The notes: a model not told the origin generated them from the sequence alone. DNA of 64,000 nucleotides from Saprospiraceae bacterium (GCA_965249765.1 CBDFMR010000005.1:1506782-1570781); one strand, 5' to 3'. Positions 1,284 through 15,639 are shown, numbered from the stretch's first letter. A program made the numbers and translations.

Positions 1284-1640
1284 TCAGTATTCTTTTACCA
1301 ATACTTCTGTTGAGATATTTAATTTTTTATTTAGTTTTCTGATCATACTTAGAGTTAGTTTTCTCTTCTTATTTAGAATTTCACTTGCTCTACTTTTATG
1401 TCCAATAATTTTAGCCAAATCAGTTTGATTCATTCCCATTTGATCCATTCGAAATTTAATTGCTTCGATTGGGTGAGGTGGATCGATGGGATAATTTTTA
1501 TCTTCATAATCTTCTATAATCAATGCCAATATTTCTAATTCATCTCCTTCTTTAGTGCAAGGTTCGGCGTCAAATATTTTGTCAAGACGTTTAAGAGCTA
1601 ATTCATAGTCTTTTTCTGTTCTTATAGGTTTCATTTTCAT
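1284..1640 (-). CDS. higA: HigA-like antitoxin (XRE-family HTH, type II TA)
   Basis: 118 aa with a C-terminal helix-turn-helix (QTDLAKIIGHKSRASEILNKKRKLTLSMIRKL). It starts 3 nt after the stop of the upstream RelE/HigB-like toxin gene, the typical higB-higA order. Confidence 0.7.
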   Translation of the reverse strand: MKMKPIRTEKDYELALKRLDKIFDAEPCTKEGDELEILALIIEDYEDKNYPIDPPHPIEAIKFRMDQMGMNQTDLAKIIGHKSRASEILNKKRKLTLSMIRKLNKKLNISTEVLVKEY

Positions 1641-1642
1641 TG

Positions 1643-1936
1643 TTATATTTTTGTAGGGTCAATTTTATCATATTCGTCATGGGTTCCAATAAATCTAACA
1701 TATACCATTTGATATTTGTAATTAACCCTGACTATTAATCGATATTGGTTTCCTTTGATGTTGAATATTACCCGATTATTTGATACAAGTCTTGAGTTTG
1801 GGAATTCGTCTTTAACAAAATTTGGATTTGACCAATTACCCTTTATAGTTTCTTGAAACCATGATTTTAATTGTTCTTCTGTATCAGGATGTAACTCCCA
1901 AAATTCTCTTAATATCTTTTTCGCAAGTACTCTCAA
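1643..1936 (-). CDS. higB: HigB-like toxin (RelE/ParE superfamily mRNA interferase)
   Basis: 97 aa; size and sequence pattern (WxxHPDTEEQLKSW, RVIFNIKGNQYRLIVRVNYKYQMVYVRFIGTHDEYDKI) are typical of HigB-family toxins. It sits immediately upstream of the HTH antitoxin. Confidence 0.7.
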   Translation of the reverse strand: MRVLAKKILREFWELHPDTEEQLKSWFQETIKGNWSNPNFVKDEFPNSRLVSNNRVIFNIKGNQYRLIVRVNYKYQMVYVRFIGTHDEYDKIDPTKI

Positions 1937-2074
1937 CTCTTTTACAAGTAAAGATACAAAAAGGTTCCCATTGTGGTATATTTATTTTTTATTGAGGATA
2001 ACGGTCTTGTGTATGAAACGTAGCGTGCAAAAAAACACTACCTTTTTGGAATAGCACAGAGCCGAAATTTTATA

Positions 2075-2143
2075 ATTTGTTTTTAATTTTTCTCTTTTTT
2101 TAAAGCCAAATTGAAAATTTGGCGGTCTTTGAAAATAAATACC
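2075..2143. repeat. about 70-bp intergenic element (copy 1) containing the palindrome gccaaat-N5-atttggc
   Basis: aatttgtttttaatttttctcttttttttaaagccaaattgaaaatttggcggtctttgaaaataaatacc. A near-identical element is present at 18617-18682. Confidence 0.6.
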
Positions 2144-2199
2144 AACTTTCAGTTTAGTAATTATTAGCCATGTTTTATACACCGTGTTAGCAATAGTTT

Positions 2200-2562
2200 T
2201 TAACATCCTGGAAAAGAATCACAGTCCAAATCATCACAATCAGTAAATCCATCTCCATCATTGTCTATTCCATCATTACAGATTTCAGCTGAACAACTTT
2301 GGTCAGAATCACAGTCCAAATCATCACAATCAGTAAATCCATCTCCATCATTGTCTATTCCATCATTACAGATTTCAGCTGAACAACTTTGGTCAGAATC
2401 ACAGTCCAAATCATCGCAATCAGTAAATCCATCTCCATCATTGTCTATTCCATCATTACAGATTTCAGCCTGAGGGTTGTCATCATCACTATTACATGAT
2501 TGATAAATAATTACACTAAAACTAAATAGTGTTAGTAGTAAAATTGGTCTTAAATTTTTCAT
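2200..2562 (-). CDS. small secreted lipoprotein with three perfect 30-aa Asp/Cys-rich (DxDxDG calcium-binding-like) repeats
   Basis: Signal peptide plus lipobox ([23 protein letters not shown]). This is followed by 3x [30 protein letters not shown]. Confidence 0.6.
2216..2470. repeat. 3 x 90-bp perfect tandem DNA repeat (coding)
   Basis: Units begin at 2216, 2306 and 2396. The first two are identical; the third differs by 1 nt and is truncated. Confidence 0.85.
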
Positions 2563-2802
2563 TATTTCTAAGTTTTAATTATTGCTAACGTTTTGGATAT
2601 GTAGAGTAGGTGAGGTACGAACCTATTCTGTCATATCTTTTGTTACCTACTGGCACTTTATCTTTCGTGTTTACAAATGTACTCATTTACTCATTTGTTT
2701 TGGGGTTGGCAGACATACTCTTTGGCAAGTTTGGATTTGTGCGGTGGCTTGTAGCGACTTGCCAATGTGTATGGCTATGCGTTGGCTTTTAGACATATCT
2801 TT

Positions 2803-3837
2803 TTATAAACTTTGAGCAATGCCAAGTAAATAACTTTCATATTCTCTTGGCTTTACTTGTTTTGAAGCGCGATAATTTGGTAATTTAAATTTACTCACAG
2901 CACTTCCGTTTAAAGCAAAAATTTCTTTTCCAATTTTAACCAGACAATATGCCCCATTTTTATAATTGATTACTTCTACATTTTTGACCAAAAAAGGCCA
3001 AGATTCGTGTTCTGTAGAATTAACAATTTTGGATTTAGCAGTAGTCTTAATTTTTAGATATTCTAAATTATGGCTTTCCCAAGGTAAATAATCTTTTTGA
3101 GGGTTTATTTTCGGAATAAGGTATTTTAGCTTCCCTAAATCCTCGTCACGTAATAAAATAAAGCTACCGAAATTTCCGTAATGCTTCCGCCCTTCATCGC
3201 CAAGTCCGTGAGTAAAGAACCGTGAAATAGCTCGTACTCCTTTTTCAATAGTTATGATTGTAGAATTTAATACAAAAGCATCCTCTTCATCATATGTTAA
3301 TTTTGAAACATCAATATCGTTAGAATAGGAATATAATAGCGTTTTAAATTTTTCAAAAGAGTTGTTTTCTTGTCTTTCTTTTTTTACGATTGTGTCGATA
3401 TAATAATAACGTTGAAATATAGAGAAGTCCGTGATTAATTCAAGAAATGTATTAAAACGAGTGTCGTTTTGTAAATAATCTAAATCTTCAATTACCATTG
3501 GTATTTTATTCATTAATTCAACATCTTTTGAATATAAAATGAGATTAGTTATCATTTTCTTAATTCCGTGACCATTATCAAACTGACCAAAATAATTCTT
3601 CTTCCCTTCTATTTGAGGATATTCTCCTGTAAGGTATTTTTCTTTGAGTAGAAGTAATATTTTAACTAACCGTTCAAATCCAGATGATAATAACTGTAGA
3701 GAAATATGATTGCTTGAAACAGCAGAACTTTGATTATCAAGTGCTCTAATACCTTCTTTAATGAAATTGAAAGAAGCTTCTATTTCTTCTCCTATAGCAA
3801 CAATTTTTTCTATTTCTAATGTTTCTTTAGAACTCAT
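2803..3837 (-). CDS. hypothetical protein (344 aa), translationally coupled downstream of the Type IIG R-M enzyme
   Basis: Complete ORF. Its start codon lies 1 nt after the stop of the upstream methylase-endonuclease gene. No recognisable motif. Confidence 0.55.
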   Translation of the reverse strand: MSSKETLEIEKIVAIGEEIEASFNFIKEGIRALDNQSSAVSSNHISLQLLSSGFERLVKILLLLKEKYLTGEYPQIEGKKNYFGQFDNGHGIKKMITNLILYSKDVELMNKIPMVIEDLDYLQNDTRFNTFLELITDFSIFQRYYYIDTIVKKERQENNSFEKFKTLLYSYSNDIDVSKLTYDEEDAFVLNSTIITIEKGVRAISRFFTHGLGDEGRKHYGNFGSFILLRDEDLGKLKYLIPKINPQKDYLPWESHNLEYLKIKTTAKSKIVNSTEHESWPFLVKNVEVINYKNGAYCLVKIGKEIFALNGSAVSKFKLPNYRASKQVKPREYESYLLGIAQSL

Positions 3838-3838
3838 A

Positions 3839-6800
3839 TCAACTCCCCTCTACAATTTTTATCTCGTCTTCCGTCAACCCATACAACGCATACACCATTT
3901 GGTCTATTTGGCGGTCTGTTTTACCAACCTCTGATTTTAGTGCTTGGGCTTCGGCTCTTTTAGTTTCAAAGAGTTGCATCCATTCCATTTCGTCTGATTT
4001 GGTGAGTTTAATGCCCCCTGCTTTTTTAATAGCTTTGTTGAGTTCTTTAATGAAATCTCCAAATTCCAATTCGTACCAGTTTTGGAGTTTTTTAGTGAGC
4101 TTTTCTAATGAATATTTTGAGGTTAAGTATTTCGAGAAAGTACCTTTTGTGCTATTGTATCTACCCAAAAAATCGCTTATTTGGACTGATAGGTTTGACA
4201 GTTCCACTTCCTTTTGTTTATCGGAAATAGCAATTGGAAATTCTTTTACGTAAATATTTATCCATCTCGTAGTTCCCATACCACTTGTATTTGCAATTTG
4301 TTTGAGATAAAACTCAATTAGCTTGGAATTCAAGATTGCAAGTAAGTAATCAAGGGCTATGTTTTCAGGTGGTATCAAAAAGTATGCACTATTCAGCAAA
4401 TATATTTCATCAATACTTTTGCTAAATCTTCCCTTATCTGTAAGTTCAATCCATACAATTTTCTCTTTTTTGAAATCATCAAAAAATGAACAGGCTCTTA
4501 AATTAGTCCAGTGTTGACCTTTGGCCCCACGTTGCTTAAATTTATCGCCAAATGAATCTAAATGATTAAAAATGGCCGGATAATTGGCTGAAACATCAAC
4601 TCCGTTTTTCGTGAGTAGTAAGTAAAGGTTTGGCAACTCATAACTGTATCGATTTATATCACGACCACGCAGTAACGGTTCTATTAAATCTTTACTGTTT
4701 GAATCTTGTCCAATTAGCTCGGTTTTTTTATCTTCCGAAATCACAAATGCTTGATTTGAGCCTGTGGCCAGTCCTAATCGTATTTTTGTGTTTAAATCTT
4801 CAAGAGTAGGGTTAGTACCTTTTATTTTGTTTCTCAATTTTAAGACTTCAGGACGAATCAAATTCCAAGACAAGTAGTCAAAATCTGATTGCTGATATGA
4901 AAATTTATTACTCTCTATAAATGCCCAAAAATCCGTTTGAGTATCGTATATACTGTTAACTATTCTTGCTTTGAAAGTGCTATCTTTTGATTTTCTGAGT
5001 GTGGTGATAACTGAATTTACAATAGCATCAGAAAATATTTGAGTTTCTTCAATATTTATAAGTTCCTTAATTGTACTATGAGCTATAAAATACTCTCTTA
5101 AAGGCTTTCCATAATCAGCTTTTAAAAATGAATTTGACGTAATATAAGATAATGTACCATTCGTTTTTAAGATTCTAATTCCTAATTCATAGAAAAAACA
5201 AAATAAATCTGCAAATGCTTGATACGTTTTGTAGTTCTTTTGAAGATAATTCTTATTGTCAATTCTGTCGTGACTCACATAAGGCGGATTTCCAATCACC
5301 ACATCAAAGCCACCTTTGGCAAATATTTCAGGAAATTCTTTGTCCCAATTAAATGCTTTATCGCCTGCTACTTCTGGGTCGTCTATAAGAGAATTACCAC
5401 ATTTTATATTGCTGTTTAGTGTAGTTAGTTTTCGGCCTTTTTGTGCTGTACGAAGCCAAAGGGATAGCTTCGCTATCTCTACACTTTCTTCGTTTATGTC
5501 AACACCAAAAAGGTTGTTTTCCAAAATTGCGTTTTGCACTTCGGAGAAAATCATTGCATAGCCCAATAGTTTGGCTTTGAGTTCGTCAATGTATCGGTGT
5601 TCTGCTATGAGAAATTCAAGGGCTTGGTTTAAGAATGCACCACTACCACAAGCCGGGTCGCAAATTGTGAGTTGGAGTAACCATTTTCTGTAAGTGTCCA
5701 ACTTGTTTTGCAGGGCTGTAAGAGTGGCTTTCTTTCTGCCTTTTCGTTCTTTTTCGTAGTCGGTTTCCTGTATGTCGAGTTCGGTTTTCTTTTTTTCACA
5801 GAGTTTGCCTACTGTATTGTCAACAATGTATTTGGTAATGTATTTTGGGGTGTAGAATACACCATCTTTTTTACGCTTGGTCTTGCTTTTATCAATTTCC
5901 GTGCCTTCTAATTGGGCTTGGATATTTTCAATTTCGGTTAGCGAGTGTTCAAAAATATGTCCGAGTATGTTTACGCTTACTTCGCTTTCAAAATCGTAAT
6001 GGCTCAGGTTTAGGGTATGCTTGTAGAGAAGTTCATCGTCAATTTTTATGTTGTCGAGTATGTCGTCAGGTGCAAACAGTCCGCCATTGTAAGCAAAAAT
6101 ATCGTGCTTCTGTCCTTTGTGACCTGTATTCATATACCCGAAGTACTTTTTGAATCGGTCGTACAAGGGTTGGTATTCATCATATTTATCTCGTAGGTCA
6201 GTCCATTGGTTTACGATTTCTCGGATTGAGTTTGGCGGTAGTAATAAGCGGTCTTCGGCAAAAAAGATAAACAGAAAACGGTCGAGCAGTTTTTGAGTTT
6301 TCTTGAATAATGTAAGTTTATCGTAATCGGAATTATTCTTTTGTATGCTGTCGAAAATCTCATTTCGGAATTGCGAATAATCTTTGTAGAGTTTCTTGGT
6401 TACGTTTTCCTCTTGGGTAAGCGATTCGTCTTTTATCTGCTTGGGAATGTCTTTGAGCAAGTTTTCGGCAGCAAGGCAGAGATACAGTTTTTCAAAATCG
6501 GTCTTGTTAAGATTAAAGAGATTGAATTCTTCAAAGTCCACCGCATTGTCAATATAGAAGCGTAGTTTTTCAAAGTTGGACGTAATCACATACATACAAT
6601 CGGGTTGATTGTTTTTATATCCAAATGCTTGTGTTTCTACTTTGGCAAGGTCAACGGTGTTGGTTCCTTTCAGTTCGATTACAGCAAGAGCTTTGTCGTC
6701 TTGTAAAATTGCTCCGTCTGTTTTCTTCGCTCCTTTTAGGTTTTTGAGTTCGGTGGTTAGGTTGAAATTGGTTTCGGGATTTAGTATGTAGCCAAATATG

Positions 6801-6979
6801 TTTACGAACAAGTCTCTTAGGAATCCTTCTTGATATTGTTCTTCTTTGGAGTTTCGTATGTTCTCCTGTATGGTTGGATTATGAAAGTGTGCCGTGTATT
6901 TATTCCAAGCCTGTTCTACCTGTCGGCTGTCAAGTCCTTTCAGGTATTTGTTTAAAACAGAATTTTGGAATAGACTCAT
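3839..6979 (-). CDS. Type IIG/IIL restriction-modification enzyme (MmeI-like): N-terminal PD-(D/E)xK nuclease fused to an N6-adenine DNA methyltransferase and a target-recognition domain
   Basis: 1046 aa. N-terminal D-x(n)-E-L-K motif (DGAILQDDKALAVIELKGT). Methylase motif I DPACGSGAFL and motif IV NPPY (VVIGNPPYVSHD). C-terminal 350 aa has no catalytic motifs and is consistent with a TRD. Confidence 0.8.
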   Translation of the reverse strand: MSLFQNSVLNKYLKGLDSRQVEQAWNKYTAHFHNPTIQENIRNSKEEQYQEGFLRDLFVNIFGYILNPETNFNLTTELKNLKGAKKTDGAILQDDKALAVIELKGTNTVDLAKVETQAFGYKNNQPDCMYVITSNFEKLRFYIDNAVDFEEFNLFNLNKTDFEKLYLCLAAENLLKDIPKQIKDESLTQEENVTKKLYKDYSQFRNEIFDSIQKNNSDYDKLTLFKKTQKLLDRFLFIFFAEDRLLLPPNSIREIVNQWTDLRDKYDEYQPLYDRFKKYFGYMNTGHKGQKHDIFAYNGGLFAPDDILDNIKIDDELLYKHTLNLSHYDFESEVSVNILGHIFEHSLTEIENIQAQLEGTEIDKSKTKRKKDGVFYTPKYITKYIVDNTVGKLCEKKKTELDIQETDYEKERKGRKKATLTALQNKLDTYRKWLLQLTICDPACGSGAFLNQALEFLIAEHRYIDELKAKLLGYAMIFSEVQNAILENNLFGVDINEESVEIAKLSLWLRTAQKGRKLTTLNSNIKCGNSLIDDPEVAGDKAFNWDKEFPEIFAKGGFDVVIGNPPYVSHDRIDNKNYLQKNYKTYQAFADLFCFFYELGIRILKTNGTLSYITSNSFLKADYGKPLREYFIAHSTIKELINIEETQIFSDAIVNSVITTLRKSKDSTFKARIVNSIYDTQTDFWAFIESNKFSYQQSDFDYLSWNLIRPEVLKLRNKIKGTNPTLEDLNTKIRLGLATGSNQAFVISEDKKTELIGQDSNSKDLIEPLLRGRDINRYSYELPNLYLLLTKNGVDVSANYPAIFNHLDSFGDKFKQRGAKGQHWTNLRACSFFDDFKKEKIVWIELTDKGRFSKSIDEIYLLNSAYFLIPPENIALDYLLAILNSKLIEFYLKQIANTSGMGTTRWINIYVKEFPIAISDKQKEVELSNLSVQISDFLGRYNSTKGTFSKYLTSKYSLEKLTKKLQNWYELEFGDFIKELNKAIKKAGGIKLTKSDEMEWMQLFETKRAEAQALKSEVGKTDRQIDQMVYALYGLTEDEIKIVEGS

Positions 6980-7031
6980 ACTATCATTCTTGCGTTTTGC
7001 AAATTTACTTTCTTTTTTAGCGTTGGCTAAA

Positions 7032-7096
7032 AATCAGGCTCTTTTGGTTTTTCGTATTGTGCTTTGCGGGTCAGCAAAAACCAAATGTGCCTGATT
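7032..7096. terminator. imperfect 21-bp-stem hairpin between the Type I operon and the Type IIG gene
   Basis: aatcaggctcttttggttttt-(23 nt loop)-aaaaaccaaatgtgcctgatt; 19 of 21 positions are complementary. It lies 270 bp downstream of the DUF45 gene and upstream of the Type IIG start. Confidence 0.3.
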
Positions 7097-7364
7097 GCGG
7101 GAGGGCTATACTTTTCAAGCTTGTAGGTAACGTCCCGTGTATGGTGTCGTAGCATCCCGAAGGGTGCTATGCACTATACACATTGTTGTGCTTTCGTGCT
7201 TTATTTTCTTTTCGTTTTTATTCTCATTTTCTATGTCCACTTGTGCGGTGGGGCATTTTTTTAAATTTCTCTTTTCTTGGGCAGGGACTTGAAAGCTCTT
7301 TTGCAGGTTTTGGTCGAGCGTTGGCATTGTGCGACCTGCAAATGTGCTTGAAAGTGTGCGTTGG

Positions 7365-8081
7365 CTAATACTCCCAATCTGCATGACTAACTGGTAATCT
7401 GTTTAACTCATCTCTCAGTTTCTTCCAATTTGGTAAATAATAGTCCATATGTGCTTTGAATTTGTCATTGTGATTTCGTTCTAATAAATGAACCATTTCA
7501 TGTACAAGAATGAATTCTAAACAGTGAATGGGCTTTTTTGCCAATTCTAAATTCAACCAAACTCTTTTCTTTTCTATGTTGCAAGAACCCCATTTAGTTT
7601 TCATCTGTTTAATGCCACAGAAATTGATTCTTACACCTATTTTCTTTTCCCAATGAGAAATCATTTCAGGTAAAATGCTTTTTAATTCAGCTCTATACCA
7701 TTCATTGAGTAGGTTCTTTTTATATTCAATCGAGACATCAGATTTTACTATTAAATCAAGATATGTTTTGCCTTTTAAATCTACTTTTCCTGCTCCTGTA
7801 GTTTCTTTTATTCTGAGCAAATACCTTCTTCCTTGGAAATAATGGCTTTCTCGTTCTTTGTATTCTTTTGGCGAAGTACGCTCTTGGGCTGCAAATTTGC
7901 GTTGGTGTCTTTTTATCCACCCTAGTTTTGAAATTGCAAAAAGGCGAATAGCGTCACCATGAACATTTAGTGGAACAGCAAGACGAACACGACCTGTTGG
8001 CGGATAAACAGCCAAGTGCATGTTTTTAATATCCTTTCGGATAACATCAACAGTCATATTGCTAATTGTAATTTGCTGCAT
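7365..8081 (-). CDS. DUF45/YgjP-like (M48/SprT-type) zinc metallopeptidase, common accessory gene of Type I R-M operons
   Basis: 238 aa with WGSCN and HExxH (ILVHEMVHLLERNHNDKF). It overlaps the hsdR stop by 1 nt. Confidence 0.8.
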   Translation of the reverse strand: MQQITISNMTVDVIRKDIKNMHLAVYPPTGRVRLAVPLNVHGDAIRLFAISKLGWIKRHQRKFAAQERTSPKEYKERESHYFQGRRYLLRIKETTGAGKVDLKGKTYLDLIVKSDVSIEYKKNLLNEWYRAELKSILPEMISHWEKKIGVRINFCGIKQMKTKWGSCNIEKKRVWLNLELAKKPIHCLEFILVHEMVHLLERNHNDKFKAHMDYYLPNWKKLRDELNRLPVSHADWEY

Positions 8082-11000
8082 TAGTATTCACGTTGATTTT
8101 TAACGATATCAAATATTCTGTCTATCTCGTCTGGTGTTACAATCCCTTTTTCAGCGAGTATCTCTTCAATTTTTAGCCTTACTTCTTTTGTTTTGAATTT
8201 GTTATCGCGCCAAGCATCTTTTTTAGTATATCGTACTGCTTTATCAAGAGAATTTGCTAGAAATTCATCTTTACCAGTATTGTCATAAAGTGCTCTTTTT
8301 GCCTCATTATCAATTGAGCTTGGATAGGTTGTTGAAGAACTTGGTTGTTTAATTTTTCTTGTCAATGCAACAATTTCATCCAAGTACTTTTCGTATTCAT
8401 CCGCTTTTTCTTTCCTCAGTTTTATAAGTTCGTCAAGCAGAATGCTCATCTTCTCATAATACATTGGGTTTGTTGGACTTTCTTCAATTATGACTTTTCG
8501 CAAGTTGTTTTCAATCGTCTCTGACATTGAATCCTTATTCTTTCTGAGTTTTTCAGGAAGGTCATTTATTGCGTCTTTTCCTTTTTCAACAATAAGTTCC
8601 ACCAAGCTTAAATCGTCAAAACTTGAAAGCATTCGGCTTTCTTCTGCTCCAATGTATGAGTCAATTAAATGACGCATTGCTGGTTCATACTGTTTTAGGT
8701 CAATGTAATCACCACTCGCTAACTGAATTTCTTTCCGCAGATTCTCGTAATATTTAACTTCATTTTTGATGCCTGCAATCTCGTTGTTCATGTATCCTGC
8801 TTCTGGCATTTCATCAGCAATATTGGCATAAGCACGAATAACAGAAATCACACATTTGTACAATGCAACCCTTCTGGGTTCGGTATCTTTTAATTCATCT
8901 GAATTTTCGGAATTCCCAACAAAGTAGTGCTGAAACTGAACTTGACCTTTCGGTGGTTCAACAGGTTCAATTAAAGCTCGCATTGTTTCTAAAGCGTCAT
9001 CTAAACGTTGTTTTCCCTTTTTCAAGCGATCTTCTAATAAACCTGCAACATCTTCTTTTTCAAAATTGTCAAAAGCACCTGAGGTGTAATCCTTAATGGA
9101 CTTGTCAAGGCTTTTAAATAGGTCTTTGTAGTCTATGACATAACCATAGTCTTTGTCATCCCCATCTAAGCGATTCACTCGGCAAATGGCTTGAAATAAA
9201 CCATGGTCTTTCATGTTTTTGTCTATGTACAAGTAAGTTGCTGATGGAGCGTCAAATCCCGTTAAAAGTTTATCTACTACAATAAGGAGCTTCATTTGAG
9301 CAGGTTCATCAACAAACTTCTTCTTGGCTTCAATTTCAAAGGCTTCAACATCTTTTCCATTGAGCATCTTTTGATAAATCTCGTATTTAATGAGTTTTTC
9401 TGTTAATCCTTCACCTGTCTCTTCACCTTTAATATCTGCATGAGAAGGAGCAAAGGAGGTGACGATAGCACAGTTCTTTAGTCCTGCATTTTGAAACAGT
9501 TCGTAATATCGGCAAGCGTTGTACACACTTTCGGAAACCAACATGGCATTTCCTCTACCATTTTGCAAACGCTCTTTAGTTTCCATGTCGAGCATTACAT
9601 CTGCAACAATTTTCTCTAATCGAGATTTGGAACTGAAGACCTTTTTTAAAGTACCCCATTTTTGTTTCAGTTCTGTTTTGGCGAAGTCTGTTAGCCCTTT
9701 TGTTTTAGCATCAAACCATTGGTCTATTTTATCAAAACTTGATATTTTCTGCTCAATGTCTCGTGCTTCATAACGCAAGTCAAGAACAACTTTATCAGCT
9801 ACTGCTTCATCAAATTTGTAAGTGTGAATGTATTTACCGAATACCTCTAGACTCGTTTGCTTGTCTTTTTTGAGAAGAGGAGTTCCTGTAAAACCAATAA
9901 ATAATGCATCAGGTAAAATGGTTGTCATGCTCTCATGAAGTTTACCACTTTGGGTTCGGTGACACTCGTCTACGAAAACAAAAACATCACCTTTGGCTTT
10001 AAAGTCAGTAGGCAAGCTTGCCTTTAAATCTTTGATATAATCATCAACATCCTTCTCATCAATTTCTTCTTTTCCGCCAAATTTGTGAACCAAAGAACAA
10101 AGTAACCAAGGTGAATTAGAATTGAGTTTATCGATTAAATCCTTACCGCTTGTTGTACGATAAATGTGTTCATCTACGCCTTTGTAAACTTTTTCAATTT
10201 GTTCATCCAGTTCCGTTCTATCTGTTATTATTAGAACTCGGGCATTTTCAACATTTTCTCTAATCCATTTGGTAAGCCAAACCATGGTTAAGGACTTCCC
10301 ACTTCCTTGCGTATGCCAAATGATTCCACCTTCTCTTTTTCGAACGTGTTCTTGGGCTGCTTTAATACCGAAATATTGGTTTGGTCTTGTTAGTTTTTTG
10401 ATTCCTCTATCAAATACTATGTAGTCATGGAGCAACTCAATGAAACGCTCTTTATTCAGCATTTCTATAATGTTCTTGTCCAAACGGTGCTCAACCGTTG
10501 CAGCTAAATGTCGAATAGGTTTTGTGAGTTGAAGTAAATACTTGTCTTTAGCGTTTACTTCTTCATTTACCTCTTTCCAACTTAGATAATATCTTTCTTT
10601 GGTTTCTATTGCTCCATAAGCCAATCCCTCATTATCACTTCCAGCCATTACAAATTGTAAGGTTGAAAAGAAAGGCTTTATAAAAAGGTGTTTTTGATTG
10701 TCTAAATTCTGACGAATTCCTTCTGAAATTGAAACGGTACTCCGTTTTAATTCAATAACGCCCAATGCAATTCCGTTTACATACAGAACAATATCTGGAC
10801 GCTTTTTATGAATTCCTTTTATTGTGACTTCTTCTGCAATTGCGAAATCATTTTTAAGCGGATGCTTCCAATCAATTAGTTGAATGGTTTTTTTATTCTT
10901 CCCAATTTCAGGTTGAACATTTACGCCATAACGTAGAAGCGTATAAAACTCTTTGTTTACATCATATAAACTTTTGCTTTGGTCGTTTGCAATCTTATCC

Positions 11001-11572
11001 AGTTCATACAAGGTTTTTGTAATGAGGTTGGAGTCGTATTTCTTTTGTAGAAATTCCGTTAATATCTCAGTTTCAATATTGCTGTTGTCTTCACGTTCTT
11101 CCCAATTTCCTAAGTAACGGTAGTTCAATTTGTTTTGAAATAATTCAACAACTCGGTCTTGGGTAACTCGTTCTAATTGACCAACCTCAGAACTTGCAGG
11201 GTTTTCTAGTTTATTCACAATATTTCTTTTTATGCCTGAGGCTAATGGTTTGTCAGGTGAGAGGAGTATTAACCCTGGATCAGGAAAAATGTCATCACTT
11301 ACAACGCCTGTGTAATCTTCTACTTCAAGTTCATTTTGATTGACAAAGCTTCCTTTTAAGAAACGAGATATTTTGTCATTAAAGACGGTTCTCAAATCAA
11401 GTTCGCCTGATAAGAATTTACCTGAATTTTCAGCATCTACTTTATGCCCAATGTATTCCTCGGTTTCCTCATCTAATAAGACAAAGAGGTAGTTAAACTG
11501 CTTCTCGTCTTCGCAGATAAGTAGCGTAGGAATCTCGTAATAGTACAGCTGTTTAACCACTTTTAAATTCAT
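8081..11572 (-). CDS. hsdR: Type I restriction endonuclease R subunit (HsdR)
   Basis: SF2 helicase motifs: Walker A WHTQGSGKSLTM, DEAH-box FVFVDECHRTQ, motif III TGTP. Start chosen at MNLKVV so that the ATG overlaps the stop of the upstream small ORF; the longest ORF would extend to 11629. Confidence 0.85.
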   Translation of the reverse strand: MNLKVVKQLYYYEIPTLLICEDEKQFNYLFVLLDEETEEYIGHKVDAENSGKFLSGELDLRTVFNDKISRFLKGSFVNQNELEVEDYTGVVSDDIFPDPGLILLSPDKPLASGIKRNIVNKLENPASSEVGQLERVTQDRVVELFQNKLNYRYLGNWEEREDNSNIETEILTEFLQKKYDSNLITKTLYELDKIANDQSKSLYDVNKEFYTLLRYGVNVQPEIGKNKKTIQLIDWKHPLKNDFAIAEEVTIKGIHKKRPDIVLYVNGIALGVIELKRSTVSISEGIRQNLDNQKHLFIKPFFSTLQFVMAGSDNEGLAYGAIETKERYYLSWKEVNEEVNAKDKYLLQLTKPIRHLAATVEHRLDKNIIEMLNKERFIELLHDYIVFDRGIKKLTRPNQYFGIKAAQEHVRKREGGIIWHTQGSGKSLTMVWLTKWIRENVENARVLIITDRTELDEQIEKVYKGVDEHIYRTTSGKDLIDKLNSNSPWLLCSLVHKFGGKEEIDEKDVDDYIKDLKASLPTDFKAKGDVFVFVDECHRTQSGKLHESMTTILPDALFIGFTGTPLLKKDKQTSLEVFGKYIHTYKFDEAVADKVVLDLRYEARDIEQKISSFDKIDQWFDAKTKGLTDFAKTELKQKWGTLKKVFSSKSRLEKIVADVMLDMETKERLQNGRGNAMLVSESVYNACRYYELFQNAGLKNCAIVTSFAPSHADIKGEETGEGLTEKLIKYEIYQKMLNGKDVEAFEIEAKKKFVDEPAQMKLLIVVDKLLTGFDAPSATYLYIDKNMKDHGLFQAICRVNRLDGDDKDYGYVIDYKDLFKSLDKSIKDYTSGAFDNFEKEDVAGLLEDRLKKGKQRLDDALETMRALIEPVEPPKGQVQFQHYFVGNSENSDELKDTEPRRVALYKCVISVIRAYANIADEMPEAGYMNNEIAGIKNEVKYYENLRKEIQLASGDYIDLKQYEPAMRHLIDSYIGAEESRMLSSFDDLSLVELIVEKGKDAINDLPEKLRKNKDSMSETIENNLRKVIIEESPTNPMYYEKMSILLDELIKLRKEKADEYEKYLDEIVALTRKIKQPSSSTTYPSSIDNEAKRALYDNTGKDEFLANSLDKAVRYTKKDAWRDNKFKTKEVRLKIEEILAEKGIVTPDEIDRIFDIVKNQREY

Positions 11573-11976
11573 ACTTCTACCTTTTGAATGGTTACAGAGC
11601 TTATGTCGAATGAATGAGAACGCCACCATGAATAATGACCATCTGAAAAAGTTTGCTTAATCATTCCGTCACCGTCATACAACACTATTTTTGCAAGCAA
11701 TTTTTCTTTCTTTTTGCCCGCAGGTGTTTTGAAAAATGCATTTAAAAGTCCTTCGGCACTGTCAAATGTGGATACCGCTCTGGCACAACATTCATCAGGA
11801 TATTCTTTAGTCGGGAATTTACTTCTGTGAGACATCAAACATTCTGAGGAAGCAGGATTGCATTTTACTATGCGATATAATTCCATAGAACCATCAGGAA
11901 TATTTGCATCTTCATGCGGGCAATTACAATCCGCAATGTCCAAATCTTCAAAATATCTGATTTCGCTTTTATCCAT
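11569..11976 (-). CDS. Cys-rich hypothetical protein (135 aa) inserted between hsdS and hsdR
   Basis: Starts 2 nt after the hsdS stop; its stop overlaps the proposed hsdR start (ATGA). Cys clusters CNCPHE, KCNPASSEC, ECCARAV. Confidence 0.45.
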   Translation of the reverse strand: MDKSEIRYFEDLDIADCNCPHEDANIPDGSMELYRIVKCNPASSECLMSHRSKFPTKEYPDECCARAVSTFDSAEGLLNAFFKTPAGKKKEKLLAKIVLYDGDGMIKQTFSDGHYSWWRSHSFDISSVTIQKVEV

Positions 11977-11977
11977 T

Positions 11978-13201
11978 TTAAACCAATCTCTTTTTACCGT
12001 TTAATAAATCTTGCATCATACCCCTTTTGAACATTTTTTGCTTTGTGAGTTTAGATTCTAATTGTTCTATTTCATTATCCATATCAAAAAGAATGGTTGC
12101 TATTTTTTTTTGCTCGTCAATTGTTTTGGGAGTTAGAAATTTAAAATTGACAAAGTCTTTTTGATATAGGTGATTTATAGTTGAACCAGCACTTAATTGG
12201 GTTAAAAATGTCAGAAAAACATCAGATAATAGAAGGTAATAGAAGAATTCTGGGTGAAATGATTTGTTAATAGGACGAATAACAAAAACCCCACTGTTAA
12301 GTGTTGCGGGCTTAGGCACATCTTTTATTAGTGCTACTTTACCAATGGTTCCATCTTTTGTGACAAGAACATCATGTGGTTTGACTTGAATAAATTTGTC
12401 TTGGCGATATCTGTCATATTCTACATAATGACATTTATCCCAATCGATAAAGCCATTCTTAAACTCTGTGCCAGTAATAAGAAAATATTCTCCAGTTTTT
12501 TTGTACTCAGCAGTTGTTAAACCTTGCCAGCCAATCCGTGCTTTAAGAGTAGCTGTTTTACCTAATTCGTTTTCGACCCAATCTTTTTTGGGTTTCATTA
12601 ATTTTTGGAGGATACCTTGTTTTAAATTTCGTTTCTTAGCAAGAAGTTTTTCAAGACAAGCAATCAATTGATCTGTATCACTGAGAGCAATAGAGATTTT
12701 TGTTTGCTCTGATTTCTTAAGAGGTAAAGCGACAGGACAATCTAGAATTTCTTGTCGCTTTATATTGGTTTGACCAGTACCACTATCAAATGCTAAATAG
12801 TATTTGTTTCTATTTAATTTATAGAACAGATACATATTGTCTGTATCATCATTGGCAGTTATTCCACCAATTCGTTGATTCAACGTATATCTGTCATCCT
12901 TATCAATGAGAAAGCATTTTGCTAATGCTTTTCCTTTTGGAATGTCACTCATTACAATTGTGATATCTCCTTTCGTTAATGGAAAAATGTTCTTCTTAGA
13001 AAATTTCTTTACTCCTCCTTCAGTTGAGATAAATTTTGAGTTCACTACGATGTATTCTCCATGCTCATCAATAAACTGTTCATGAGCTTTCCCATTTTCA
13101 AAATGGGCCACTTCATGCAAAGGTTTTACCACCCAATCGTTTGGAATGATTCCTGCGTCCGTTTGCTGAAAACCTTCTGCTATTTTCAATTCTTCTACCA
13201 T
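11978..13201 (-). CDS. hsdS: Type I R-M specificity subunit (HsdS), two target-recognition domains
   Basis: 407 aa. Bipartite TRD architecture with conserved spacer helices (LIACLEKLLAKKRNLKQGILQKLM ... NEIEQLESKLTKQKMFKRGMMQDLL). Overlaps hsdM by 7 nt. Confidence 0.85.
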   Translation of the reverse strand: MVEELKIAEGFQQTDAGIIPNDWVVKPLHEVAHFENGKAHEQFIDEHGEYIVVNSKFISTEGGVKKFSKKNIFPLTKGDITIVMSDIPKGKALAKCFLIDKDDRYTLNQRIGGITANDDTDNMYLFYKLNRNKYYLAFDSGTGQTNIKRQEILDCPVALPLKKSEQTKISIALSDTDQLIACLEKLLAKKRNLKQGILQKLMKPKKDWVENELGKTATLKARIGWQGLTTAEYKKTGEYFLITGTEFKNGFIDWDKCHYVEYDRYRQDKFIQVKPHDVLVTKDGTIGKVALIKDVPKPATLNSGVFVIRPINKSFHPEFFYYLLLSDVFLTFLTQLSAGSTINHLYQKDFVNFKFLTPKTIDEQKKIATILFDMDNEIEQLESKLTKQKMFKRGMMQDLLNGKKRLV

Positions 13202-15639
13202 GTGTAGTTCATTTGTTTTAGGTGGTCTTCAACTTTAGCAGTTAAGTCAGCTATGTCATTGGTAAGTTTAGGCATTGGTGTTTCGTATCTTTCACCAAGC
13301 TCTTTTATCCGTTCGGTTAATCGGTGACTTATGGCATCCATTTCTGATTTGACAAGTAGTTCCATGGTCACCATCCATTTCTTGTCAACCGTAAGTGTTT
13401 TGATTTCATCAATGCTCAAAACAGGATATTTCTTTATGACTTTACCTTCTAGTTCGGAAAGAGCTTTTTTTATACTTGCTTTTAGCTTGGTTTCTTTCGC
13501 CATTAGCTTTTTGTATTTGTCTAGCATATCCCATTCTTCGGCATTGTCTGCATCTTTCTTTCCAAGTTCCTTGATGCGTGCATCCAAACTCTTTTTAGAA
13601 ATCTTTTGCTTGTCGTCCATGGGTTCTGTCAACAAACCATCTTCACCACCATTTTCATCTCTCAATTCATCCATTTCGGAAACGGTTGTGTCTAAATCAG
13701 ATTGAAGTTTTTCAATGGCACCTTGCTCAGTTGCAAAATATTCTTGAATGATTATAGATGGCGGAATTAACCTGCCTTCTAGTCCGTCTATTCCATCAAC
13801 TGCTTTTTCAATTTCTTTACCTGCTTTCTTTGCTTTTTTCATGATTCTTGAAACCACATTTCCAGCTTTCCAGCCATCAGCTGATAACTCATACAAATCA
13901 TCTTGCATGATTTCAGACCAATAGTCCATCATGTGTTGATAAACTGCATATTTATCTACCAAGTCCTTTCCATGGTAGGTTTTAAGAAGGTCTTCTGATA
14001 TTTTATGAATGACTTCTTTAGGGTGACAGGCTTCTTCTAAACCTTTGAGGTAAGTTGTGTTTTTGACACACCATTCGTTGAATACCTTTTCCATTTTTTC
14101 TGAGTAGATTACGAATTCAGGGTGTTCAAAAATGGTAGACTTAATGCTGTCTTTTTCTACGTCTAAATCCCAATAGTTAGCACGAGAGTTTGGCTTGTAC
14201 ATATCGGTTTTTAGTGTTGGGTAAACTTTCCAGTAACTATTTAAAGCTTCAATATCTCTGTTAGGAATACCACCTCTTAAATGTGCATCAATGTCTTGAA
14301 TGTCCTCTTCTTCCTGACTGTCAATATATCTTGGAATATTTAAGTTGTAGTCATTCTTCGGGCCTGAGATTTCAGACAAAGGCACCATTCGGCTGTATTT
14401 CAGAATTTCAAGTTGTTTGTTAAAGACATCTACTATTTGGTGAAGGTCTTGCGAACGCAATCTGTTTTTGTTTCCGTCCTTCATAAATCCTTTACCTGCA
14501 TCAATCATAAAAATGCCTTTACGCTGAGCGGCATCTTCTTTGTCTATCACCAAAATACAAGCGGCTATACCAGTTCCATAAAACAAGTTGGCAGGTAGTC
14601 CGATTATTCCTTTGATGTATCCTCTTTTAACAATGCTTTTCCGAATCTCTGCTTCCGCATTTCCTCTGAACAAAACGCCTAGAGGTAGAATGATTGCTCC
14701 TTTTCCTTTGCTTTTCAGTGATTTGATTAAATGGAGCAGGAATGCATAATCTCCGTTTTTCTTTGGTGGAATGTCGTAATTCTCAAAACGCTTATATAGG
14801 TCATTAACCGCATCAAGTCCGTTTGTCCAAGTCTTGTTGCTAAAAGGGGGATTGGCTACTGCATAATCAAAAGTTTTTAAATCTCCAGTTTTATCATCTT
14901 TAAAAAGTGGATCAGCAATTGTATTTCCTTGGACAATTTCAGATGCAGGATTTCCATGCAGCCACATATTCATAACAGCCAAGGCTCGTGTAGCATTGTC
15001 ATTTTCTTGTCCGTAAATCGAAATGCCGTGAGGTGATTCATCTGCTGCTTTTAGCAGCAACGAACCTGAACCGCAAGTTGGATCGTAAAGACTTTCAGAT
15101 TGGCTTTTTGATTTTTGAATTCCAATCACTTTTGCCATTATTCGAGAAACTTCAGCAGGTGTATAGAATTGTCCTTTACTCTTTCCGCTTTCCGTTGCGA
15201 AGTGTCGCATCAAATACTCATAGGCGTCACCAAGGATGTCGTCATTCTCTGCGCGGTTTCCGCTAAAGTCAAGAGCTTCATTTTCGAAAATCTCGATTAG
15301 ATTACTTAATCTGTCAACTTTGTCTTTTCCCTTTCCAAGTTTCTCGCTATCGTCAAAGTCAGCAACGGTTATAATTCCATTCAGGTCATTGGCTTTTGCC
15401 AATGCTCCAATAATTACATTGATTTTTTCACCTATGTCTGACTTTCCTTTAAGTTTTATCATGTCCTTAAAGCTTCCACCTTCAGGTATGTCAACCAATG
15501 CACCGCCTTTGTCAGAGACATATTTCATAAAGAGTAAAACCAATACATAATCTTTGTACTGGCTTGCATCCATGCTTCCCCTTAATTCATCACAGCTTTT
15601 CCAAAGTGAGCTGTATAATTCTGATTTCTTTATTGCCAT
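13195..15639 (-). CDS. hsdM: Type I R-M methyltransferase subunit (HsdM) with an unusually long (about 300 aa) charged coiled-coil C-terminal extension
   Basis: 814 aa. N-terminal HsdM_N pattern (ELYSSLWKSCDELRG), motif I DPTCGSGSLL, motif IV NPPF (AVANPPFSNKTW). The last ~300 aa are K/E-rich with no methylase motifs. Confidence 0.85.
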   Translation of the reverse strand: MAIKKSELYSSLWKSCDELRGSMDASQYKDYVLVLLFMKYVSDKGGALVDIPEGGSFKDMIKLKGKSDIGEKINVIIGALAKANDLNGIITVADFDDSEKLGKGKDKVDRLSNLIEIFENEALDFSGNRAENDDILGDAYEYLMRHFATESGKSKGQFYTPAEVSRIMAKVIGIQKSKSQSESLYDPTCGSGSLLLKAADESPHGISIYGQENDNATRALAVMNMWLHGNPASEIVQGNTIADPLFKDDKTGDLKTFDYAVANPPFSNKTWTNGLDAVNDLYKRFENYDIPPKKNGDYAFLLHLIKSLKSKGKGAIILPLGVLFRGNAEAEIRKSIVKRGYIKGIIGLPANLFYGTGIAACILVIDKEDAAQRKGIFMIDAGKGFMKDGNKNRLRSQDLHQIVDVFNKQLEILKYSRMVPLSEISGPKNDYNLNIPRYIDSQEEEDIQDIDAHLRGGIPNRDIEALNSYWKVYPTLKTDMYKPNSRANYWDLDVEKDSIKSTIFEHPEFVIYSEKMEKVFNEWCVKNTTYLKGLEEACHPKEVIHKISEDLLKTYHGKDLVDKYAVYQHMMDYWSEIMQDDLYELSADGWKAGNVVSRIMKKAKKAGKEIEKAVDGIDGLEGRLIPPSIIIQEYFATEQGAIEKLQSDLDTTVSEMDELRDENGGEDGLLTEPMDDKQKISKKSLDARIKELGKKDADNAEEWDMLDKYKKLMAKETKLKASIKKALSELEGKVIKKYPVLSIDEIKTLTVDKKWMVTMELLVKSEMDAISHRLTERIKELGERYETPMPKLTNDIADLTAKVEDHLKQMNYTW

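What the first reader, a model, noticed from the sequence alone, without database searches (positions are those of the whole stretch)
2803..6979. Uncharacterised 344-aa gene translationally coupled to an MmeI-like Type IIG R-M enzyme
Type IIG/IIL enzymes (PD-ExK nuclease + NPPY methylase + TRD) are normally self-sufficient single proteins. Here a complete, motif-less 344-aa ORF starts 1 nt after the enzyme's stop codon. That suggests co-expression and possibly a functional partnership: a specificity or regulatory subunit, an Abi-like companion, or a toxin kept in check by methylation.
Basis: partly seen in the sequence, partly recalled or inferred. Interest (0 to 1): 0.6.

Follow-up and report, generated by a model that had tools for sequence, protein, structure and literature searches.

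The report
HEPN-like cargo gene behind restriction enzyme
The 344-aa gene is real, conserved and unannotated, has a HEPN-like fold, and sits as one of many interchangeable defence genes just behind a Type IIG restriction enzyme gene; it is an add-on, not a subunit the enzyme needs.

The parts
3839..6979 (-). Type IIG restriction-modification enzyme, 1046 aa. It comprises an N-terminal PD-ExK nuclease (D88, E102, K104), an MmeI-type helical spacer, a gamma-class N6-adenine MTase (DPACGSG at 441, NPPY at 564), a TaqI_C-type TRD and a conserved C-terminal tail (YGLTEDEIKIVEGS).
   Evidence: Pfam and PADLOC; motifs read from the translation. NCBIfam BREX PglX models score far below their cut-offs.
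2803..3837 (-). X344: a 344-aa protein of an unannotated family. The coordinates include the stop codon at 2803-2805.
3118..3837 (-). X344 N-domain (residues 1 to ~240), all-helical with a HEPN-like fold. Residues conserved across the superfamily are E18, G53, E55, R56, K59, H90, F138, R143, Y144, D/N148, E198, R202 and R206. This domain also exists alone, as ~240-aa proteins.
2806..3090 (-). X344 C-domain (residues ~250-344), a small alpha/beta domain with a YebY/DUF2511-like fold and a conserved W280-P-F motif.
3835..3841 (-). Gene junction TGA-T-ATG, a 1-nt spacer. This is the inferred site of translational coupling or re-initiation.
   Evidence: Equivalent junctions in relatives measure -4, -1, +1, +2 and +7 nt.
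3839..3909 (-). Conserved 3' tail of the IIG gene. This is where DNA homology to other X344 loci begins, so it is the inferred left-hand crossover point for cargo exchange.
   Evidence: blastn and alignment. A ~75-nt remnant of such a tail lies directly upstream of X in L047, where no IIG gene is adjacent.
2702..2787 (-). Conserved ~87-nt hairpin element, copy 1. It lies 15 nt after the X344 stop and marks the right-hand boundary of the cargo slot.
   Evidence: CM hit of 86.8 bits, E 4.5e-21. Covariation: 18 pairs, 97% paired, 8 pairs with compensatory changes, 0 of 500 shuffles as high.
2775..2796 (-). Remnant of the first codons (ATGTCTAAAAGCCAACGC = MSKSQR) of the SLFN/AlbA_2-type gene that follows X344 in its closest relatives. 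That gene is deleted here.
   Evidence: blastn break points: window 2775 matches L044 5035, and window 2779 matches L044 6379. Gene content of L044-L046. Sequence.
7019..7107 (-). Hairpin element, upstream variant copy, ending 39 nt before the IIG ATG. The same spacing (35-47 nt) is seen in 25 relatives.
   Evidence: CM hit of 41.2 bits, E 7.8e-9; alignment A8; spacing table.
7000..7007 (-). TAAATTTG, which matches the Bacteroidetes -7 promoter consensus TAnnTTTG. It is the likely promoter of the IIG-X344 transcript. The consensus is taken from general knowledge.
   Evidence: Sequence. The box is invariant in the alignment of 12 relatives.
7279..7366 (-). Hairpin element copy directly after the stop of the YgjP-like gene, closing the upstream Type I R-M module. 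It lies inside a spurious 89-aa ORF (7115-7384).
   Evidence: CM hit of 71.8 bits, E 4.9e-17; alignment.

Best explanation
X344 belongs to a widespread, so far unannotated protein family. It has a HEPN-fold helical N-domain with a non-canonical conserved site (E55-R56-x-x-K59, H90, R143-Y144-x3-D/N148, E198) and a small YebY-like C-domain.

In this genome it occupies a variable cargo slot between the stop codon of a self-sufficient Type IIG R-M gene and a conserved hairpin element. It is most likely transcribed from the IIG promoter and translated by coupling.

It is not part of the restriction enzyme. It is a modular second-line defence gene, most likely a self-regulated abortive-infection-type effector. 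Its HEPN-like domain would bind or cleave RNA (or another nucleotide substrate), and its C-domain would sense a signal or dock to a partner. Other lineages put TIR, STAND-like, Mrr, RhuM or PDC-S11 genes downstream of related IIG genes.

The gene probably arrived by homologous recombination between the conserved IIG 3' tail and the hairpin element.

What is shown: gene reality, fold, conserved residues, linkage statistics, slot anatomy and the recombination scars. What is inferred: co-translation, the defence role, the RNase or effector activity, and autonomy from the IIG protein.

For: Conserved polar site: E55, K59 and H90 are invariant, and R143 and Y144 are present in 79 of 80 representatives. 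The HEPN survey (PMC3710099) reports HEPN-T members with D in place of the motif His and a conserved His elsewhere.

Linkage to R-M systems: 12 of 23 close loci are IIG-linked. The IIG genes are of Eco57I/TaqI_C type, DUF7149 type, HSDR_N type and true MmeI type. Distant homologues lie in Type III operons (L017, L018), in or beside Type I loci (L020, L007), and two small ORFs upstream of a IIG-like gene (L021).

X is far more conserved than its IIG partner, for example 87% against 36%, and 65% against 26%.

Independence from the enzyme: none of 41 informative IIG-relative loci has X. In 41 of the 80 relatives the hairpin element lies within 40 nt of the IIG stop. Elsewhere, defence genes follow the IIG gene: TIR, STAND-like, PDC-S11/DUF4268, Mrr, RhuM, DUF1883-TIR and a ClpP-like protease. 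For six loci (L100, L106, L119, L120, L125, L128) the hairpin was detected beyond the cargo.

Autonomy of X: solo copies are under purifying selection (L043, dN/dS 0.09-0.13). N-domain-only forms lie next to tyrosine integrases in arrays of small same-strand ORFs. No conserved small partner gene was found.

Recombination scars: there is an IIG-tail remnant upstream of X in L047, and an AlbA_2 start remnant after X in the window.

Concept: at least 16 HEPN clades are linked to R-M systems.

Against: No experiment links the family to phage defence, and it is absent from PADLOC. About 40% of close loci show no defence neighbour within the fetched flanks.

Tight coupling to IIG genes in many lineages could reflect a real physical partnership, which my data cannot exclude.

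The AFDB fold library was unavailable.
Confidence: 0.55

Rival explanations
1. R-M guardian, on the PrrC-EcoprrI model. X344 binds the Type IIG enzyme and is held inactive by it. It fires as an Abi effector when a phage anti-restriction protein inhibits the enzyme or the enzyme is overwhelmed. On this view the coupling serves stoichiometric co-assembly.
For: Junctions are overlapping or nearly touching in at least 7 lineages, with four IIG architectures. One homologue is embedded between hsdR and hsdS, as prrC is (L020). Others are the first gene of Type III operons. The PrrC analogy has been proposed for R-M-linked HEPN genes, and the 'RM guardian' concept appears in a recent review.
Against: Solo copies are under equally strong purifying selection. 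The partners belong to three different R-M types that share no common subunit X could recognise. X does not co-vary with the IIG C-terminus. The same downstream position hosts self-contained effectors such as TIR, STAND-like and Mrr genes.
Confidence: 0.2
2. Non-catalytic accessory. The HEPN-like domain is an inactive binding module, comparable to MtlR/YggD or the sacsin type. X344 would act as a sensor, adaptor or regulator, for example of expression or of another effector such as the adjacent SLFN/AlbA_2 or RhuM gene.
Against: The strictly invariant charged and His residues (E55, K59, H90, R143, Y144) look more like an active site than a scaffold. X persists without those neighbours, as in the window, L043 and L001.
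Confidence: 0.12
3. Passenger gene with a role unrelated to defence. It would be carried in mobile islands and merely compacted against the IIG gene.
For: There is no match in any defence-gene library. About 10 of 23 close loci lack recognisable defence neighbours. The closest structural relatives of the C-domain, YebY and MlbQ, are not defence proteins.
Against: Adjacency to non-orthologous IIG, Type I and Type III R-M genes recurs across phyla. The alternative genes downstream of related IIG genes are defence genes. The gene is almost absent from phages and plasmids.
Confidence: 0.1
4. Obligatory specificity, regulatory or activity subunit of the Type IIG enzyme.
For: Only the tight coupling.
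Against: None of 41 informative close IIG relatives has it, and in 41 of the 80 relatives the hairpin element follows the IIG stop directly. The IIG enzyme carries intact nuclease, MTase and TRD modules. X occurs without any IIG gene.
Confidence: 0.03

Closest known systems
PrrC anticodon nuclease embedded in the Type Ic EcoprrI R-M locus (an 'RM guardian')
   Same: Both are accessory proteins with a HEPN-fold effector domain, encoded inside or against an R-M locus. In PrrC this provides a second line of defence. One X homologue (L020) lies between hsdR and hsdS/hsdM.
   Different: X344 has no ABC-ATPase N-domain and no Rx4-6H motif. Its usual partner is a single-chain Type IIG enzyme. No physical interaction or trigger is known, and many copies are solo.
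R-M-linked HEPN clades of Anantharaman et al. 2013 (AbiU2, AbiJ, ApeA, EC042_2821, HEPN-T and others)
   Same: They share the genomic logic: at least 16 HEPN clades are linked to R-M operons. Some HEPN-T members have D in place of the motif His and a conserved His elsewhere. RhuM and Schlafen-type neighbours also recur.
   Different: None of the Pfam models built for those clades matches X344 or its relatives at E <= 0.1. The YebY-like C-domain and the specific coupling to Type IIG genes are not described there.
MNT-HEPN toxin-antitoxin toxins and DUF86 (4nqf, 5yep, 7ae2, 8xdj, YutE)
   Different: No nucleotidyltransferase antitoxin gene lies next to X in any locus examined. The domain is about 100 residues larger because of an insert carrying the invariant GH motif. 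The RX4HXY motif is absent.
YebY / DUF2511 and MlbQ
   Different: YebY is a secreted protein of a copper-related operon, and the PDB entry describes MlbQ as a putative lipoprotein. X344 has no signal peptide, and sequence identity is 14-19%.
Defence-island hotspots and gene-cassette arrays (integron cassettes, P2/P4 hotspots)
   Same: A fixed slot flanked by conserved sequence holds alternative defence genes. The modules are unidirectional, each followed by a structured repeat. Short X forms lie in integrase-adjacent arrays of small ORFs.
   Different: The hairpin is not an attC site: its flanking GCCAACGC boxes are direct repeats, not inverted R''/R' cores. The cassettes include large genes with their own promoter. 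No dedicated recombinase has been identified.
BREX, DISARM and MADS multi-gene systems built around a IIG-like methyltransferase (PglX, DrmMI, MAD2)
   Same: The IIG protein shares the MTase domain with PglX and DrmMI.
   Different: PglX NCBIfam scores are far below cut-off (154 against 500). An intact PD-ExK nuclease is present. No BREX or DISARM domains turned up among the neighbouring ORFs I scanned.

Membership tests
HEPN superfamily | Four-helix up-and-down bundle of the HEPN fold | tested here: met
HEPN superfamily | Rx4-6H catalytic motif at the start of the last core helix | tested here: not met
   The family has R143-Y-[YH]-[NY]-[LI]-[D/N]148, with D in 54 and N in 25 of 80 representatives. 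H90 is invariant in a different segment. R206xxxH210 occurs only in the close subfamily. D-for-H variants are known in HEPN-T. Structural equivalence could not be checked.
HEPN superfamily | Match to a curated HEPN sequence profile | tested here: not met
   No Pfam or NCBIfam HEPN family matched X344 or ten distant relatives at E <= 0.1-1. No PDB sequence hit was found with the profile.
HEPN superfamily | Metal-independent endoRNase activity | not testable with these tools
   This needs biochemistry.
Type IIG R-M enzyme (the upstream gene) | A single polypeptide with a PD-ExK nuclease, a gamma-class N6A methyltransferase (NPPY) and a TRD | tested here: met
MmeI family proper (the upstream gene) | MmeI_N, MmeI_TRD and MmeI_C domains | tested here: not met
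   Only MmeI_hel (29 bits) and a secondary MmeI_Mtase hit were found. The TRD is TaqI_C and the MTase is Eco57I type. True MmeI-family partners do exist in L009 and L025.
PrrC-like R-M guardian | Gene embedded in or attached to an R-M locus | tested here: met
PrrC-like R-M guardian | Regulatory ABC-ATPase domain fused to the HEPN domain | tested here: not met
   No ATPase domain is present. The architecture is a HEPN-like domain plus a YebY-like domain.
PrrC-like R-M guardian | Physical inhibition by the R-M enzyme and activation on its inhibition | not testable with these tools
   Indirect evidence is mixed: there is tight coupling, but there are also solo conserved copies.
HEPN-MNT toxin-antitoxin | Adjacent minimal nucleotidyltransferase antitoxin | tested here: not met
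   No NTase partner was found in any X locus. The single SMODS neighbour (L005) is not an MNT.
BREX (PglX) | PglX equivalog score and accompanying brx/pglZ genes | tested here: not met
   The NCBIfam score is 154.5 against a cut-off of 500. No BREX domains were found among the scanned neighbouring ORFs.
DUF2511 / YebY (C-domain) | Pfam PF10709 match above gathering score, and the YebY fold | tested here: inconclusive
Integron gene cassette | attC site with inverted R''/R' core sites, and an IntI integrase with attI | tested here: inconclusive
   A covarying hairpin follows each module, but its conserved GCCAACGC boxes are direct repeats. The nearest tyrosine recombinase gene lies ~4.4 kb beyond the outermost copy, in the same orientation. 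No attC model was run.

The most novel reading that the evidence does not exclude
In marine Flavobacteriia and other Bacteroidota, Type IIG (and Type I) R-M modules are built as hairpin-delimited cassettes. A covarying ~87-nt element with three GCCAACGC boxes lies 39 nt before the IIG start and right after its stop. Second-line effectors are swapped into the space between them: X344, and possibly also TIR, STAND-like, Mrr, RhuM and PDC-S11 genes.

The swapping would run on a dedicated mechanism. It could be site-specific, or ssDNA/HUH-type: some partner IIG enzymes carry an embedded IS200-like Y1 domain. X344 itself would be a new non-canonical HEPN guardian that reads out the state of the R-M enzyme.
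Probability: 0.15. Interest if true: 0.8.

Novelty: new member of a known kind. Interest (0 to 1): 0.5.

Why it matters
It puts a name and a testable hypothesis on a protein family of at least 771 sequence clusters, annotated everywhere as 'hypothetical'. The family appears to be another HEPN-fold accessory of restriction-modification systems. Here it is attached mainly to single-chain Type IIG enzymes, which are usually treated as complete one-gene systems.

The comparison also shows that the 3' end of this IIG gene family is a defined, hairpin-bounded slot that is either empty or filled with different defence genes. That gives a simple guilt-by-position handle for finding new effectors. Several occupants have no known domains: 254, 233, 284, 471 and 606 aa.

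It also raises the question of how such cassettes are exchanged. If X344 proves to sense failure of the restriction enzyme, it would extend the PrrC/PARIS 'guardian' idea to Type IIG systems.

Tried and rejected
- **Profile and sequence searches of X344.** Pfam, NCBIfam, PADLOC, PHROGs, PDB by sequence and PDB by profile gave nothing.
- **Fold searches.** Foldseek against PDB found only the C-domain match. The AFDB50 library was unavailable.
- **Mobile-element searches.** tblastn against plasmids and phages found no match. IMG/VR gave three weak short-form hits, apparently from a single sequence, which I did not pursue.
- **Specificity subunit or obligatory partner.** Rejected by the reverse neighbourhood test.
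- **Transposase remnant or spurious ORF.** Rejected by conservation, dN/dS and the structure model.
- **BREX, DISARM or MADS membership of the IIG gene.** Rejected on scores and gene content.
- **Toxin-antitoxin with a small partner.** Neighbours of solo and short-form copies share no similarity.
- **Co-variation of X with the IIG C-terminus or TRD, as a hint of docking.** None found.
- **The hairpin as a known RNA or tRNA.** There was no Rfam or ARAGORN hit.
- **The hairpin as an attC site.** The core-site pattern does not fit (by inspection).
- **Errors and dead ends.** My first structure string for the hairpin was out of register and gave meaningless counts; it was corrected. One neighbourhood look-up was wasted on a 919-nt contig.
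- **Spurious cargo.** The ~100-aa and 166-aa 'cargo' ORFs after some IIG relatives turned out to be spurious ORFs running over the hairpin.
- **Sigma-70 promoter scan.** It is uninformative for a Bacteroidetes-type genome.


Full report
**1. The observation**

On the minus strand, a 1046-aa ORF (3839-6979) is followed by a 344-aa ORF (2803-3837). The junction reads TGA-T-ATG, a one-base spacer.

The large protein is a complete Type IIG enzyme.
- Pfam gives Eco57I methylase (2.5e-51), TaqI_C specificity domain (1.6e-17) and MmeI helical spacer.
- A PADLOC Type IIG model matches end to end at 1404 bits.
- The translation shows D88...E102xK104, DPACGSG at 441 and NPPY at 564.
- It is not a BREX PglX: the score is 154 bits against a cut-off of 500.

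The small protein ('X344') has no hit in Pfam, NCBIfam, PADLOC, PHROGs or PDB sequences. The coordinates and description are therefore right. 'MmeI-like' is only loosely so, and 'motif-less' is true only for public profile libraries.

**2. X344 is a real, conserved gene**

- There are 101 homologue clusters at 29-88% identity, almost all 340-355 aa, mostly from Bacteroidota.
- A profile search finds 771 clusters at E <= 0.001 across many phyla.
- Pairwise dN/dS between seven orthologues is 0.09-0.25.
- All sources call the protein 'hypothetical', except one UniProt label, 'HEPN domain-containing'.

The family has two architectures: full length (~345 aa), and the N-terminal ~240 aa alone.

**3. 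Fold and conserved residues**

AlphaFold2 with a 48-sequence alignment gives pLDDT 91.8. The model has a helical domain (residues 1 to ~230) followed by a small alpha/beta domain.

Foldseek recovers only the YebY match.

Conservation over 80 diverse representatives:
- E55, K59 and H90 are invariant.
- E18, G53, R143 and Y144 are present in 78-79 of 80.
- R56 and E198 are each present in 72 of 80.
- Position 148 is D in 54 and N in 25.

The canonical HEPN Rx4-6H motif is therefore absent. What is present is Rx4[D/N] plus an invariant His in another segment. The HEPN survey describes exactly such variants in the HEPN-T family: D replaces H, and a conserved H lies elsewhere (PMC3710099). I could not superpose structures, so the equivalence of these residues to the HEPN active site is an inference.

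**4. Forward neighbourhood test**

I examined 23 distinct loci with homologues at >= 41% identity.

- *IIG gene immediately upstream (9 loci):* the window, L001, L009, L025, L033, L035, L037, L044 and L046. Junctions are -4, -4, -1, +1, +1, +2 and +7 nt, with about 7 and 22 nt in the two MmeI-type loci.
- *IIG gene upstream with inserted genes in between (3 loci):* L002, L011 and L047.
- *Next to a Type I hsdMSR locus (1 locus):* L007.
- *No R-M gene in the fetched flank (10 loci).* This group includes a 77%-identical copy between priA and pfk (L043) and a copy overlapping a SMODS gene (L005).

The IIG partners have four different architectures:
- Eco57I/TaqI_C type, as in the window;
- DUF7149-DUF7814 type;
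- HSDR_N type;
- true MmeI family.

X is much better conserved than its partner: 87% against 36%, 65% against 26%, and 49% against 21%. Its divergence does not track the IIG C-terminus.

Among 24-30%-identical homologues from other phyla:
- X is the first gene of Type III mod-res operons (L018, overlapping mod by 14 nt; L017).
- X lies between hsdR and hsdS/hsdM (L020).
- X lies two small ORFs upstream of a IIG-like gene (L021).
- X lies near a TOTE-type primase-helicase (L014).

X is followed by RhuM in two lineages and by a SLFN/AlbA_2 ATPase in its closest relatives. Several copies are decayed (L011, L025, L028-L030).

Short N-domain-only forms lie beside tyrosine integrases in arrays of small same-strand ORFs that include toxin-antitoxin pairs (L130, L131), or alone in an archaeon. 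No conserved small partner gene exists. The family has no match in the plasmid and phage collections, and IMG/VR gave only three weak short-form loci.

**5. Reverse test**

I fetched 80 metagenomic loci encoding relatives of the window's IIG enzyme at 48-83% identity. Of these, 41 have at least 1100 nt downstream. None encodes an X-family protein anywhere (hmmsearch with both family profiles). The enzyme family clearly works without X.

Genes found downstream of the IIG gene in these relatives:

| Gene | Locus | Distance from the IIG stop |
|---|---|---|
| PDC-S11/DUF4268 protein | L049 | 1 nt, as for X344 |
| TIR-domain protein (420 aa) | L084 | -4 nt |
| Unannotated 420-aa ORF (not scanned; does not cluster with the L084 gene) | L100 | -1 nt |
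| DUF1883-TIR | L113 | 12 nt |
| STAND-like ATPase (1080 aa; weak AAA/nSTAND hits) | L099 | -1 nt |
| Mrr | L077 | 33 nt |
| RhuM | L102 | 20 nt |
| ClpP-like protease | L115 | 32 nt |
| Proteins without known domains (254, 233, 284, 471, 606, 190 and 225 aa) | several | -4 to 45 nt |

**6. Anatomy of the slot**

DNA comparison shows that the homology between the window and other X loci begins 70-270 nt inside the IIG 3' end. This is the conserved tail encoding ...EIDQMVYxLYGLTxEEIKIVEG. The homology to the closest relatives (L044, L046) ends 28 nt after the X stop.

- In the solo locus L043 the homology starts exactly at the base before the ATG.
- In L047 a four-gene system (CTD2, MComp1, SMC-like, DUF2130) separates the IIG gene from X. 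Even so, a ~75-nt remnant of an IIG tail still sits directly upstream of X.

Immediately downstream of X in the window lies a conserved ~87-nt element (2702-2787).

- In 41 of the 80 IIG relatives this element lies within 40 nt of the IIG stop. In 34 of them it starts 13 nt before the stop, so the stop codon lies within the element's 5' flank.
- In L062 and L064 a partial copy at the IIG stop is followed by a 254-aa gene and a second, full copy.
- In six further loci the element follows the cargo: L100, L106, L119, L120, L125 and L128.
- It also closes IIG-X-AlbA_2 (L044), IIG-X-RhuM (L037) and MmeI-type IIG plus an X fragment (L025).

The element folds into an 18-bp imperfect hairpin with a ~29-nt loop. 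Conserved GCCAACGC boxes lie on both flanks and in the loop. On 20 copies, 97.2% of cells are paired and 8 pairs show compensatory changes. None of 500 shuffles is as high, and slid controls drop to 25-47%. It has no Rfam match.

A covariance model finds four copies in the 64-kb window, all on the gene strand and all in this island:
- 15924-16008, before the Type I module;
- 7279-7366, right after that module's last gene;
- 7019-7107, ending 39 nt before the IIG ATG, a spacing shared by 25 relatives;
- 2702-2787, after X344.

A TAAATTTG box (7000-7007) matches the Bacteroidetes -7 consensus (from general knowledge). It lies between the third copy and the IIG start, and it is invariant among relatives.

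The 22 nt at 2775-2796 are the remnant of the start of the AlbA_2-type gene that follows X in L044 and L046. The window therefore derives from an IIG-X-AlbA_2 arrangement by deletion.

**7. Interpretation**

*Shown.*
- X344 is a conserved protein with a HEPN-like N-domain and a YebY-like C-domain.
- It is recurrently and tightly attached to non-orthologous Type IIG genes, and more distantly to Type I and Type III systems.
- It is dispensable for the IIG family and can persist alone.
- It occupies a delimited slot that is usually empty and in some relatives holds other cargo genes. Defence genes follow related IIG genes elsewhere.

*Inferred.*
- It is co-transcribed from the IIG promoter and translated by coupling.
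- It is a second-line, self-regulated defence effector.
- Its HEPN-like site binds or cleaves RNA.
- It was acquired by homologous exchange between the IIG tail and the hairpin.

I put 0.55 on this reading. I put 0.2 on the stronger PrrC-like guardian model, in which X is physically held in check by the R-M enzyme. A non-catalytic adaptor or regulator gets 0.12, an unrelated passenger 0.1 and an obligatory subunit 0.03.

**8. Comparison with what is known**

The logic matches the R-M-linked HEPN genes catalogued in 2013. It also matches the PrrC-EcoprrI paradigm, in which an R-M-embedded HEPN nuclease is released when the R-M system is neutralised.

Membership of the HEPN superfamily is supported by fold only. 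The motif test and the profile test are not met. It is not an MNT-HEPN toxin, since it has no NTase partner. It is not PrrC-like in architecture, since it has no ABC ATPase.

I file it as a new member of a known kind: R-M-associated HEPN-fold accessory genes. It has unusual features, namely the variant site, the YebY-like domain and the preference for Type IIG genes.

The hairpin-bounded cassette organisation and the IS200-like Y1 domain embedded in some partner IIG enzymes are the least expected findings. I have not explained them.

**9. Limits**

- There is no experiment and no structural superposition, and AFDB was unavailable.
- Neighbourhoods were sampled rather than censused. The genome and metagenome scans were capped, and the metagenome scan kept only the 80 best IIG relatives.
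- Gene calls in fetched loci are simple ORF calls.
- The sigma-70 promoter scan is not applicable to this lineage.

Noticed in passing
window 2702-2787, 7019-7107, 7279-7366, 15924-16008 (all minus strand); also L025, L037, L044 and most of L052-L128: A conserved ~87-nt hairpin element with an 18-bp covarying stem and three GCCAACGC boxes brackets the Type I module and the IIG-X344 module. In relatives it lies at the IIG stop or follows the cargo genes. It has no Rfam match. Its function is unknown: it could be a terminator/insulator, a promoter carrier or a recombination site.
   Followed up: partly
L044 228-3971 (protein residues 604-704); also the IIG genes of L037-L040 and L045: Some Type IIG enzymes partnered with X344 homologues carry an IS200-like Y1 transposase domain (PF01797, E 5e-14). 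It is inserted in the methyltransferase domain just before the NPPY motif. The window's enzyme lacks it. Y1 enzymes act on DNA hairpins, so a link to the hairpin element is conceivable but untested.
   Followed up: partly
L047 7925-8000 versus L047 697-999: A ~75-nt duplicate of the IIG 3' tail sits directly upstream of the X homologue. A four-gene system (CTD2, MComp1, SMC-like, DUF2130) is inserted between the real IIG end and this remnant. It looks like a recombination scar at the IIG tail.
   Followed up: partly
window 2775-2796 (minus strand): This is the remnant of the first six codons of a SLFN/AlbA_2-type gene that follows X344 in its closest relatives (L044-L046). The gene has been cleanly deleted here.
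   Followed up: yes
window 7365-16098 (minus strand): A complete Type I R-M module lies upstream. It comprises a small HTH (controller-like) gene, hsdM (13195-15639), hsdS (11978-13201), a 135-aa unknown ORF, hsdR (8081-11629) and a YgjP-like metallopeptidase (7365-8081). A tyrosine integrase lies at 20432-21544. The whole region looks like an integrated defence island.
   Followed up: partly
window 1284-1936 (minus strand): A HigB-like toxin (97 aa) and an HTH antitoxin-like protein (118 aa) match PADLOC PD-Lambda-2 A and the first 120 positions of the 402-position PD-Lambda-2 B profile. This looks like a plain HigBA pair or a truncated PD-Lambda-2.
   Followed up: no
window 2200-2562 (minus strand): A 120-aa protein with a signal-peptide-like N-terminus and three near-identical acidic double-disulfide repeats (NCBIfam NF033662, 1.2e-28) is encoded just downstream of the hairpin element.
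   Followed up: no
window 2000-2188 (inside the 74-aa ORF 1982-2206): This block is ~75% identical at the DNA level to sequences near IIG genes in L058, L067, L071, L075 and L095. The 74-aa ORF looks spurious. It may be another conserved non-coding block of these islands.
   Followed up: no
window 7115-7384 (minus strand); L091, L098, L109-L112 directly after their IIG genes: ORFs of ~90-166 aa at these places are artefacts that run across copies of the hairpin element. They should not be annotated as genes.
   Followed up: yes
L130 7001-7729; L131 7001-7732: The ~240-aa N-domain-only form of the family lies next to a tyrosine integrase, at the head of arrays of small same-strand ORFs that include ParE/Phd and YoeB pairs. 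The layout resembles an integron cassette array. attC sites were not checked.
   Followed up: no
L062 6136-6900, L106 2801-3502, L125 3156-4010, L128 3441-4856, L119 7120-8940: These proteins have no Pfam hit, and those of L119, L125 and L128 also have no PADLOC hit. They occupy the same slot between an IIG stop and the hairpin element, which makes them candidate new defence genes by position.
   Followed up: no
L011 10001-10778, L025 4193-4483, L028-L030: These are degraded or truncated copies of the X family: stop codons in L011, and N-terminal fragments in the others. The pattern fits the rapid gain and loss typical of defence genes.
   Followed up: partly
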